Assembly (NCBI GenBank): GCA_050952265.1
Contig: JBMNKP010000002.1
Coordinates: 65,112-129,111, forward strand
Direction of reading: 5' to 3'
DNA length: 64,000 nt
Origin: Limnochordia bacterium
Lineage (GTDB): Bacteria; Bacillota; Limnochordia; Darwinibacteriales; Darwinibacteriaceae
The notes below the pieces were generated by a model. The model ran no database searches. It saw only the letters and a program-made list of their open reading frames with translations, and was not told where the DNA came from. A program made the translations under genes and the position numbers. Positions 12,608-12,883 of this stretch are shown piece by piece. The first letter of the stretch is position 1. The number at the start of each line of letters is the position of its first letter.

Positions 12608-12883
12608 CTACAGGAGTTCCAGCAGGCGGTTCACCAGCGGAAGCACAACGGTGAAGATCAGCAGCAAGGTCACTGCCAAAGAGTAGATGGCACCGGACTC
12701 AGACACCGCCTGACCTAGGAGCATGGTGGTGCGGATCGAGCCTTCCATCTCGGGTTGACGGGCCATAGCTTCCACAGCCTTTCCGGCGGCATAACCTTCA
12801 CCGATACCCACCAGTCCTCCAGAAATCAGAGCGATGCCGCAGCCGATGATAACTCCGGCAACGATGATGGCGATTTCTAGCAC
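12608..12883 (-). CDS. atpE: F-type ATP synthase subunit c
   Basis: The two-helix hairpin reads [20 protein letters not shown] ... [17 protein letters not shown] 12883 follows the RBS AAAGGAGG. Confidence 0.9.

What the first reader, a model, noticed from the sequence alone, without database searches (positions are those of the whole stretch)
12608..12883. c-subunit carries a two-carboxylate Na+-type ion-binding signature
Helix 1 reads [13 protein letters not shown], with Glu where most c-subunits have Gln. Helix 2 reads [10 protein letters not shown], an E-S-x-x-x-Y pattern. This matches the Ilyobacter tartaricus Na+ site (Q32/E65/S66/T67/Y70) except that Q32 is replaced by E. The same E32+E65 two-carboxylate motif is described for the Na+-coupled Fusobacterium nucleatum c-ring. 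This suggests a Na+-translocating F0, or an unusual H+/Na+ promiscuous one, in a sporeforming Firmicute.
Basis: partly seen in the sequence, partly recalled or inferred. Interest (0 to 1): 0.55.

Follow-up and report, generated by a model that had tools for sequence, protein, structure and literature searches.

The report
Variant sodium-type ATP synthase c-subunit
This is the rotor (c) subunit gene of an F-type ATP synthase from an uncultured spore-forming biogas-reactor bacterium; its ion pocket resembles the sodium-binding type but lacks one known sodium-site residue, so the sequence alone cannot tell sodium from proton coupling.

Summary
The gene is real: window 12608-12883 on the minus strand encodes a 91-aa F-type c-subunit inside gene1-atpI-a-c-b-delta.

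It aligns without gaps to the Na+-binding c-rings of F. nucleatum and I. tartaricus. E29=E32, V60=V63, E62=E65, S63=S66 and Y67=Y70, so the two-carboxylate observation holds.

Linked changes are G68A, A64S, G27L and P28V.

Glu32 is not a Na+ determinant. Published work shows it stays protonated and acts like Gln. It is the norm in related Clostridia, seen in 77 of 78 species-representative loci read.

A c-ring with E/E/T/M/Y (B. pseudomallei N-ATPase) was predicted to bind Na+ but measured H+-selective.

The SESGA variant is confined to biogas-reactor Limnochordia and is under purifying selection. Sister lineages keep Thr67.

My best reading is a Na+-capable, possibly Na+/H+-promiscuous rotor (about 0.5). 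Strictly H+-coupled is the main rival (about 0.37). Only biochemistry can decide.

It is a modest new variant of a known kind. The atp operon is also split: no F1 alpha or beta gene lies in the 64 kb.

The parts
14252..14280 (-). sigma-70-like promoter match upstream of the operon
   Evidence: TGGATA-17-TATCAT with an extended TG. This is a consensus match only.
13929..14147 (-). small membrane protein of the ATPase_gene1 (AtpZ-like) family, first gene of the operon
   Evidence: PF09527 on the identical gene call in L001-L004. Weak TIGR02230 hit. Start codon and coordinates mapped.
13552..13929 (-). atpI-like gene
   Evidence: Weak PF03899 hit on the identical gene call. No NCBIfam hit.
12918..13562 (-). 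F0 subunit a (atpB), 214 aa
   Evidence: PF00119 and TIGR01131 114.7 bits against a cut-off of 102.6. It aligns to chloroplast and Bacillus PS3 subunit a, including the conserved SFRLYGN arginine segment.
12608..12883 (-). F0 subunit c (atpE), 91 aa; the finding
   Evidence: There is a strong Shine-Dalgarno sequence upstream. The exact protein is P0001, annotated 'MAG Limnochordia bacterium' and seen on 154 contigs.
12797..12799 (-). codon of Glu29, equivalent to Glu32 of F. nucleatum (the second carboxylate, on helix 1)
   Evidence: Gapless alignment. Invariant in the 120 closest homologue clusters, with GAA/GAG synonymous variation among relatives.
12809..12817 (-). codons Gly23-Leu24-Val25, positions 26-28; these replace the usual Leu/Ile-Gly-Pro and break the GxGxGxGxG helix-packing motif
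   Evidence: Pro28 co-varies with Thr67-Gly68 across lineages.
12683..12703 (-). codons Ser61-Glu62-Ser63-Gly64-Ala65-Ile66-Tyr67, positions 64-70; the helix-2 half of the ion site, with Thr67 replaced by Gly and Ala64 by Ser
   Evidence: Synonymous codon variation with a conserved amino acid at positions 64, 65, 66 and 67.
12023..12523 (-). F0 subunit b (atpF)
   Evidence: TIGR01144 123.9 bits against a cut-off of 65.5. PF00430.
11493..12026 (-). F1 subunit delta / OSCP (atpH), last gene of this operon
   Evidence: TIGR01145 99.3 bits against a cut-off of 57.5. PF00213.
11416..11485 (-). two terminator-like hairpins directly after atpH, each followed by a U-rich tract
   Evidence: MFE -39.3 kcal/mol, z = -4.2 against shuffles. 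The region is convergent with the ABC-transporter binding-protein gene at 9663-11393 (+).

Best explanation
The gene encodes the c-subunit of a conventional F-type ATP synthase/ATPase. The host is an uncultured spore-forming Limnochordia-type Bacillota bacterium from anaerobic digesters.

The ion site derives from the two-carboxylate Na+ site of the F. nucleatum type. Glu62 (=65) is the transported-ion carboxylate. Glu29 (=32) is expected to stay protonated and act like Gln32. The Ser63 (=66) hydroxyl and the Val60 (=63) carbonyl supply two further ligands. Tyr67 (=70) locks Glu62.

The fifth ligand is a water held by Thr67 in known Na+ rings. Here it has lost its Thr, which is replaced by Gly. 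This change is one of a linked set: G68A, G27L and P28V. A hydroxyl at position 64 (Ser or Thr) is always kept.

I infer that the small Gly leaves room for the water, which is still held by the residue-64 carbonyl and perhaps by Ser64. The ring would then remain only weakly H+-selective. In Na+-rich, mildly alkaline digesters it would be loaded mainly or partly with Na+. That makes it a Na+-coupled or Na+/H+-promiscuous rotor, probably with lower Na+ affinity than the I. tartaricus or F. nucleatum rings.

Shown: gene identity, residue register, conservation and lineage distribution. Inferred: the protonation state of Glu29, retention of the water, and the coupling ion.
For: 1. Four of the five side-chain positions of the Na+ site, plus the backbone position, align exactly.
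2. The closest solved relatives are all Na+ rings, scoring 64-92 bits. H+ rings score 53 bits or less, and Firmicute H+ rings (Bacillus PS3, B. pseudofirmus) only 28-30 bits.
3. The minimal motif used by the field, Q/E...E-S/T, is met.
4. E32 is functionally equivalent to Q32 (PMC3692424).
5. The clade descends from full-motif ancestors. Sister Limnochordia from soda-lake sediments have S64+T67+P28 or A64+T67+P28.
6. All 101 G67 sequences among the 120 closest clusters keep Ser (99) or Thr (2) at position 64. Positions 64-67 show synonymous codon turnover with a fixed amino acid.
7. Residue 67 is Gly, not a bulky aliphatic residue as in H+ rings or Met as in B. pseudomallei.
8. The habitat is biogas fermenters. 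A MAG of the DTU010 family, to which this lineage probably belongs, is reported to carry an Rnf complex plus an F-type ATPase (PMC11932165). In A. woodii and T. maritima that pairing runs on Na+.
Against: 1. Every experimentally proven Na+ F-type c-subunit I could check has Thr at 67: the ESTG or ETTG motif.
2. The comparative rule says a polar residue at 67 is universal in Na+ types, and that loss of one ligand in a single-hairpin c-subunit probably hampers Na+ binding.
3. The B. pseudomallei E/E/T/M/Y ring was H+-selective despite a Na+ prediction.
4. All c-rings are intrinsically H+-selective, and removing polar groups raises H+ selectivity.
5. Three unrelated lineages carry A64+G67, so Ser64 compensation is not general.
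6. A crude ideal-helix model puts the Ser64 hydroxyl about 3.8-4.3 A from the crystallographic water position. That is not within H-bond distance, and the restraints were poorly met.
7. The link between this window and DTU010 and Rnf is unverified, and no Na+ pump lies in the window.
Confidence: 0.5

Rival explanations
1. The ring is strictly H+-coupled. Loss of the Thr67 hydroxyl removes the anchor of the fifth (water) ligand and raises H+ selectivity enough that protons win even against a large Na+ excess. Glu29, Ser63 and Tyr67 then simply form a hydrogen-bond network around a protonated Glu62, as proposed for the B. pseudomallei N-type ring and other two-carboxylate H+ rings.
For: Position 67 is non-polar, contrary to the rule for Na+ types. 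B. pseudomallei E30/E61/T62/M63/Y66 was measured H+-selective. Two-carboxylate motifs occur in the H+ enzymes of S. pneumoniae and M. tuberculosis. No Na+ pump lies in the 64-kb window. The Ser64 hydroxyl is not obviously within reach of the water site.
Against: Gly is not the bulky hydrophobic residue seen in H+ rings. The other polar ligands and Ser/Thr64 are strictly conserved, which a pure H+ site would not obviously need. Sequence similarity is far higher to Na+ rings than to any H+ ring. The digester habitat and the reported Rnf in DTU010 fit Na+ use.
Confidence: 0.37
2. The Thr67-to-Gly change is mainly a helix-packing or stoichiometry adaptation. Loss of the Pro28 kink and of Gly27 on the inner helix is accommodated by Gly67-Ala68 on the outer helix. 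This alters ring diameter and c-subunit number, and hence the ion/ATP ratio. Any change in ion selectivity is a side effect. This reading can coexist with either coupling ion.
For: Across 164 unique hairpins carrying the Na+-type motif, Pro28 goes with Thr67-Gly68 in 85 of 87. Non-Pro28 goes with x67-Ala68 in 71 of 77. The non-Pro set spans several unrelated lineages: Limnochordia, Peptostreptococcus and others. The GxGxGxGxG motif is interrupted by Leu at position 27. From my own knowledge, Pogoryelov et al. 2012 (PNAS) showed that mutations in this Gly motif change c-ring stoichiometry; that paper was cited but not read here.
Against: No structural or stoichiometry data could be obtained here. 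The covariation counts are not corrected for phylogeny. This reading does not by itself say which ion is used.
Confidence: 0.4
3. The cluster is a decaying or non-functional remnant, or an N-type ATPase fragment, because the F1 core genes are absent next to it.
For: No alpha or beta Walker-A signature occurs anywhere in the 64 kb. The operon ends at delta with terminator-like hairpins.
Against: All six genes are intact. The c-subunit is identical or nearly so on hundreds of contigs and shows synonymous-only variation at key codons. The same split layout is conserved in four other related loci: L008 and L009 of the same clade, and the more distant L012 and L013. A delta (OSCP) gene and an atpI-like gene (weak PF03899 hit) are present, and the N-type c model scores 44.9 bits against a cut-off of 130.85. 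Genome surveys report a complete F-type ATPase in DTU010/DTU012 MAGs.
Confidence: 0.03

Closest known systems
Fusobacterium nucleatum F-type c11 ring (PDB 3ZK1/3ZK2; Schulz et al. 2013, PMC3692424)
   Same: Single-hairpin F-type c-subunit, 42/73 identical. Shares Glu32+Glu65 (two carboxylates), Ser66, Tyr70, the Val63 position and the [11 protein letters not shown]...ARQPE context.
   Different: Thr67 is Gly, Gly68 is Ala, Ala64 is Ser, and Gly27-Pro28 is Leu-Val. The C-terminal tail differs. Na+ coupling is proven for F. nucleatum and untested here.
Ilyobacter tartaricus / Propionigenium modestum Na+ c11 ring (PDB 1YCE, 2WGM)
   Same: Same fold and register, 39/74 identical. Glu65, Ser66 and Tyr70 are conserved.
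   Different: Gln32 is Glu here. Thr67, which holds the fifth-ligand water, is Gly here. The Gly-motif on helix 1 is interrupted.
Acetobacterium woodii c1 and c2/c3 subunits (PDB 4BEM)
   Same: Best-scoring solved relative (c1, E=1.1e-25). A Firmicute Na+ F-type rotor with a Q/E...ET motif.
   Different: A. woodii has Gln32 and Thr66-Thr67, and a mixed ring with a fused double-hairpin c1. The window has a single c gene with Gly67.
Burkholderia pseudomallei N-type ATPase c17 ring (Schulz et al. 2017, PMC5376962)
   Same: Two-carboxylate site with Glu/Glu/Thr-or-Ser/Tyr and a non-polar residue at the position equivalent to 67.
   Different: It has Met rather than Gly at 67. It belongs to an N-type operon without delta, has a c17 ring, and was measured H+-selective. 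The window gene is F-type.
Methanosarcina acetivorans A1AO c-ring (Schlegel et al. 2012, as summarised in PMC3692424)
   Same: A two-glutamate site with one Glu constitutively protonated. Its intermediate H+ selectivity gives concurrent Na+ and H+ coupling. This is a functional model for the 'promiscuous' outcome.
   Different: It is an archaeal A-type enzyme.

Membership tests
F-type ATP synthase subunit c (PF00137 / TIGR01260) | Two-helix hairpin matching the family profile above the curated cut-off | tested here: met
   TIGR01260 scores 67.6 bits against a cut-off of 43.95. PF00137 is precomputed for the exact protein.
F-type ATP synthase subunit c (PF00137 / TIGR01260) | Essential carboxylate in the middle of helix 2 and a polar R-Q/N-P loop | tested here: met
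   Glu62 aligns to Glu65, and the ARQPE loop is conserved.
F-type ATP synthase subunit c (PF00137 / TIGR01260) | Operon context a-c-b-delta | tested here: met
F-type ATP synthase subunit c (PF00137 / TIGR01260) | F1 core genes (alpha, gamma, beta, epsilon) encoded with it | tested here: not met
   No alpha or beta Walker motif occurs in the window. The operon ends at delta. The F1 genes of this lineage were not located. The literature reports a complete F-type module in DTU010 MAGs.
Na+-binding c-ring, I. tartaricus type (complete Na+ signature) | Gln or Glu at position 32 | tested here: met
   Glu29.
Na+-binding c-ring, I. tartaricus type (complete Na+ signature) | Glu65 followed by Ser/Thr66 | tested here: met
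   Glu62-Ser63.
Na+-binding c-ring, I. tartaricus type (complete Na+ signature) | Polar residue (Ser/Thr/Gln/Arg) at position 67, binding Na+ directly or through water | tested here: not met
   Gly64. The rule is stated in PMC2359735. The water-Thr67 contact is documented in PMC3692424.
Na+-binding c-ring, I. tartaricus type (complete Na+ signature) | Tyr70 stabilising the carboxylate | tested here: met
   Tyr67.
Na+-binding c-ring, I. tartaricus type (complete Na+ signature) | Na+ dependence of ATPase activity, Na+ protection from DCCD/NCD-4, Na+ transport | not testable with these tools
   This is biochemistry only. The organism is uncultured.
Two-carboxylate Na+ rotor, F. nucleatum type | Second carboxylate (Glu32) facing Glu65 | tested here: met
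   Glu29 is in register and invariant in the 120 closest clusters.
Two-carboxylate Na+ rotor, F. nucleatum type | Glu32 constitutively protonated, so only Na+ is translocated | not testable with these tools
   This needs pKa calculations or transport assays (describes how it was shown for F. nucleatum).
Two-carboxylate Na+ rotor, F. nucleatum type | Uninterrupted Gly25-x-Gly27-x-Gly29-x-Gly31-x-Gly33 inner-helix motif with Pro28 (c11 packing) | tested here: not met
   Positions 25-33 read G-G-L-V-G-I-G-E-G, so Gly27 is Leu and Pro28 is Val.
N-type (alternate) ATPase | atpDCQRBEFAG operon without delta, and a c-subunit matching TIGR03322 | tested here: not met
   TIGR03322 scores 44.9 bits against a cut-off of 130.85. 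A delta (OSCP) gene and an atpI-like gene (weak PF03899 hit, no NCBIfam hit) are present.

The most novel reading that the evidence does not exclude
The Limnochordia ring may represent an undescribed architecture of the Na+ site. In it the water (fifth ligand) is no longer held by Thr67. It would be held instead by a hydroxyl one turn earlier (Ser/Thr64), in a pocket opened by Gly67. This would come together with a Pro28-less inner helix that changes the c-ring stoichiometry. Such a natural 'rewired' Na+ rotor would be the sole rotary ATPase of an abundant biogas-reactor lineage.
Probability: 0.2. Interest if true: 0.55.

Novelty: new variant of a known kind. Interest (0 to 1): 0.35.

Why it matters
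Which ion drives the ATP synthase sets the energy budget of an anaerobe. This lineage looks like the MBA03/DTU010 group. That group can reach tens of percent of digester communities and is discussed as a syntrophic acetate oxidiser. Its reported Rnf and F-ATPase must share a coupling ion.

For rotor biophysics, the clade is a natural experiment on how much the Thr67-water ligand contributes to Na+/H+ selectivity. It also tests whether sequence-only 'Na+ motif' calls are trustworthy. The B. pseudomallei case shows they can fail.

The practical lesson is that genome annotators should not call Na+ coupling from E/Q32 + E65 + S/T66 alone.

Tried and rejected
1. N-type ATPase: rejected. TIGR03322 scores far below its cut-off, and a delta gene and an atpI-like gene are present.

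2. Locating the F1 genes of this lineage. I used the beta subunit of the nearest full operon (L014) as query. The top 120 hits were all about 70% identical Firmicute betas, and none shared a contig-length fingerprint with the c-subunit clusters. I then used the L014 gamma subunit and inspected three hits. All were complete operons of other lineages.

3. Extending the window ends. The left-end protein was not on record. The 10 kb beyond the right end held no atp or rnf genes.

4. Key primary papers were not held: Leone 2015, Schlegel 2012 and Ferguson 2006. Statements about them rest on reviews or on my memory, and are marked as such.

5. The exhaustive representative search was dominated by multi-hairpin fused c-subunits. 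It only showed that Q32/A64/E65/S66/G67/A68/Y70 exists in a few unnamed lineages. No characterised organism carries ESGA.

6. Ideal-helix triangulation of the Na+ and water positions from the published distances. The restraints were poorly satisfied, and the Ser64 hydroxyl lay about 3.8-4.3 A from the water. This is inconclusive.

7. A link of the window to DTU010 through paper supplements failed, because none are held.

8. Rfam over the whole window gave no hits.

9. Subunit a was checked for oddities and is ordinary. Published reviews assign ion specificity to the c-ring, not to subunit a.

Full report
**What is there.** The finding's coordinates contain an ORF on the minus strand, 12883 down to 12608. 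It has a GTG start behind an AAAGGAGG ribosome-binding site and encodes 91 aa. It is an F-type c-subunit: TIGR01260 scores 67.6 bits against a cut-off of 43.95.

It sits in a minus-strand cluster: ATPase_gene1 (13929-14147), atpI-like (13552-13929), a (12918-13562), c, b (12023-12523) and delta (11493-12026). The exact protein is on record as 'MAG: Limnochordia bacterium' and occurs on 154 contigs, several of them from biogas-fermenter metagenomes. Twenty kb of the window is 99.9% identical to four such contigs. Window GC is 56-59%. The rest of the window holds housekeeping and sporulation genes (GerA, SpoIIP, SpoIVA, YIEGIA), so 'spore-forming Firmicute' is right.

**Checking the observation.** phmmer against all PDB chains gives gapless alignments to three Na+ rings:
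- the F. nucleatum c-ring (3zk1, E=3.7e-21, 42/73 identical);
- the I. tartaricus c-ring (1yce, E=4.6e-20, 39/74 identical);
- the A. woodii c-subunits (4bem).

The offset is a constant +3, so Glu29=32, Val60=63, Ser61=64, Glu62=65, Ser63=66, Gly64=67, Ala65=68 and Tyr67=70. But the statement that the site equals Q32/E65/S66/T67/Y70 'except Q32->E' is wrong at one of the five positions: residue 67 is Gly. Position 64 is Ser instead of Ala, and helix-1 positions 26-28 read Gly-Leu-Val instead of Leu/Ile-Gly-Pro.

**What the literature says these residues do.**
- In F. nucleatum, Na+ is bound by Glu32, Glu65, Ser66, the Val63 carbonyl and a water. The water is hydrogen-bonded to Thr67 O-gamma and the Ala64 carbonyl. 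Tyr70 and Ser66 lock Glu65 (PMC3692424).
- Glu32 is constitutively protonated and energetically equivalent to Gln/Asn. The authors expect the same in two-carboxylate H+ enzymes such as those of S. pneumoniae and M. tuberculosis. So the two-carboxylate feature is not a Na+ determinant.
- Mulkidjanian et al. state that all predicted Na+ c/K-subunits carry Ser, Thr, Gln or Arg at position 67, whereas H+ types carry an aliphatic residue. They also state that loss of one ligand in single-hairpin subunits probably hampers Na+ binding (PMC2359735).
- The B. pseudomallei N-type ring is Glu30/Glu61/Thr62/Met63/Tyr66, that is E/E/T/M/Y at positions 32/65/66/67/70. It had been predicted Na+-selective but behaved as an H+ ring in NCD-4 assays (PMC5376962).
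- The looser three-residue motif used by the Muller laboratory (Gln, Glu, Ser/Thr) is met here, with Glu for Gln.
- Reviews summarise the principle: all rings prefer H+, and more polar groups weaken that preference enough for Na+ to win at physiological excess.

**How common is it.** A scan of one genome per GTDB species returned 80 loci. Of the 78 c-subunits I could read, 77 have Glu at position 32. Of the 77 read by pattern, 72 have the canonical E-[S/T]-T-G-x-Y. These are mostly Oscillospiraceae, Ruminococcaceae, Christensenellales and Lachnospiraceae. The two-carboxylate 'Na+-type' signature is thus ordinary in Clostridia.

The S-E-S-G-A-x-Y form with Val28 is restricted to a tight clade of digester MAGs: L001-L009, and 101 of the 120 closest clusters. 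Within that clade position 64 is always Ser (99) or Thr (2). Codons at positions 32, 64, 65, 66 and 67 vary synonymously while the amino acid is fixed. Sister Limnochordia from soda-lake sediment keep Thr67 and Pro28, with either Ser64 or Ala64 (L010-L012). The likely order of events is A64S first, then T67G/G68A with P28V/G27L.

A few unrelated, unnamed lineages have Q32/A64/E65/S66/G67/A68/Y70, and Peptostreptococcus has E-S-S-A. None is characterised.

Across 164 unique hairpins, Pro28 pairs with Thr67-Gly68 in 85 of 87. Non-Pro28 pairs with x67-Ala68 in 71 of 77. This suggests that residue 67/68 and the inner-helix kink are a packing unit.

**Mechanistic reading.**
- Shown: this is an intact, conserved F0 c-subunit whose site is a derived form of the two-carboxylate Na+ site.
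- Inferred: Glu29 stays protonated, and Glu62 carries the transported ion. Gly67 leaves space for the water, which can still use the residue-64 carbonyl and possibly Ser64.
- A crude ideal-helix triangulation from the published distances put the Ser64 hydroxyl about 3.8-4.3 A from the water position. The restraints fitted poorly, so this is inconclusive.

From memory of Krah 2010 and Leone 2015 (not readable here), loss of one polar ligand costs a few orders of magnitude in selectivity. That would move a F. nucleatum-like ring toward the regime of the promiscuous M. acetivorans enzyme. In digesters Na+ exceeds H+ about 10^6-10^7-fold (my estimate), so Na+ or mixed coupling is plausible.

Circumstantial support comes from a DTU010 MAG with 59.3% GC and a 2.1 Mb genome, which is reported to have Rnf plus an F-type ATPase. 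The DTU010 family is reported to lack V-type ATPases. I could not verify that the window belongs to DTU010.

My estimates are about 0.5 for a Na+-capable ring (Na+-coupled or promiscuous) and about 0.37 for strictly H+.

**Surroundings.** The operon stops after delta. Two strong hairpins with U-tracts follow the stop codon (z=-4.2), and the next gene is a convergent ABC binding protein.

No alpha or beta Walker motif exists in the 64 kb. The same truncated layout is found in L008, L009, L012 and L013, whereas the more distant L014 has the full atpIBEFHAGDC operon. I could not find the F1 genes of this lineage. Genome surveys nevertheless score the F-type module as present in these families.

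**Comparison and novelty.** The gene works like, and is related to, the F. nucleatum / I. tartaricus / A. woodii rotors. It fails two defining features of the complete Na+ signature class: the polar residue at 67 and the uninterrupted Gly/Pro helix-1 motif. So I do not file it as a proven member of that class. It is a new variant of a known kind. Public annotation calls it 'F-type H+-transporting ATPase subunit c', which is only the generic KEGG name.

**Verdict.** Interest is moderate to low (0.35). The value lies in a clean, testable natural variant of the Na+ site in an ecologically important uncultured group, and in a caution against motif-only calls of the coupling ion.

Noticed in passing
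window 11416-14280 (minus strand); also L008, L009, L012, L013 versus L014: The atp operon is split. Gene1-atpI-a-c-b-delta ends in two terminator-like hairpins, and no F1 alpha, gamma, beta or epsilon genes lie anywhere in the 64 kb. The same layout occurs in L008 and L009 of the same clade and in the more distant L012 and L013. A more distant relative (L014) has the usual complete operon.
   Followed up: partly
window 12809-12817 (c-subunit residues 23-25, positions 26-28): The inner-helix GxGxGxGxG/Pro28 packing motif is interrupted, reading G-L-V. In 164 unique hairpins, Pro28 co-varies with Thr67-Gly68 and non-Pro28 with x67-Ala68, across unrelated lineages. This hints at a different ring geometry or stoichiometry.
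   Followed up: partly
window 50799-52788: tRNA-Pro(GGG) lies at 50799-50876. It is followed by an insertion of about 1.9 kb carrying a phage-integrase-family gene (50969-51883, minus strand) and an unannotated 223-aa ORF (51885-52556). The insertion is bounded by a 52-bp direct repeat of the tRNA 3' region (50832-50883 and 52737-52788). A related strain (L089) lacks the insertion, so this looks like a minimal integrative element.
   Followed up: partly
window 40759-42933 (+): A single 724-aa ORF fuses IspH/LytB with four ribosomal-protein-S1 RNA-binding domains.
   Followed up: no
window 16802-18301 (+): A short (499 aa) FtsH-like protein has AAA and peptidase M41 domains. It overlaps the end of an unannotated upstream ORF (16098-16817).
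   Followed up: no
window 31534-34365 (+): Three adjacent genes show DUF2229, HGD-D and BcrAD/BadFG ATPase domains. This is a 2-hydroxyacyl-CoA-dehydratase-activase-like set of unknown substrate.
   Followed up: no
window 9507-11426 (minus strand): A 639-aa ORF lies antisense to the ABC substrate-binding-protein gene (9663-11393, +). No gene is called there on the near-identical contigs L001-L004, so it is most likely a spurious ORF.
   Followed up: no
proteins P0121-P0160: Many metagenomic proteins consist of 3 to 11 fused c-subunit hairpins and score higher than any single-hairpin relative. These multi-hairpin F/V-type rotor subunits are abundant in the representative library.
   Followed up: no
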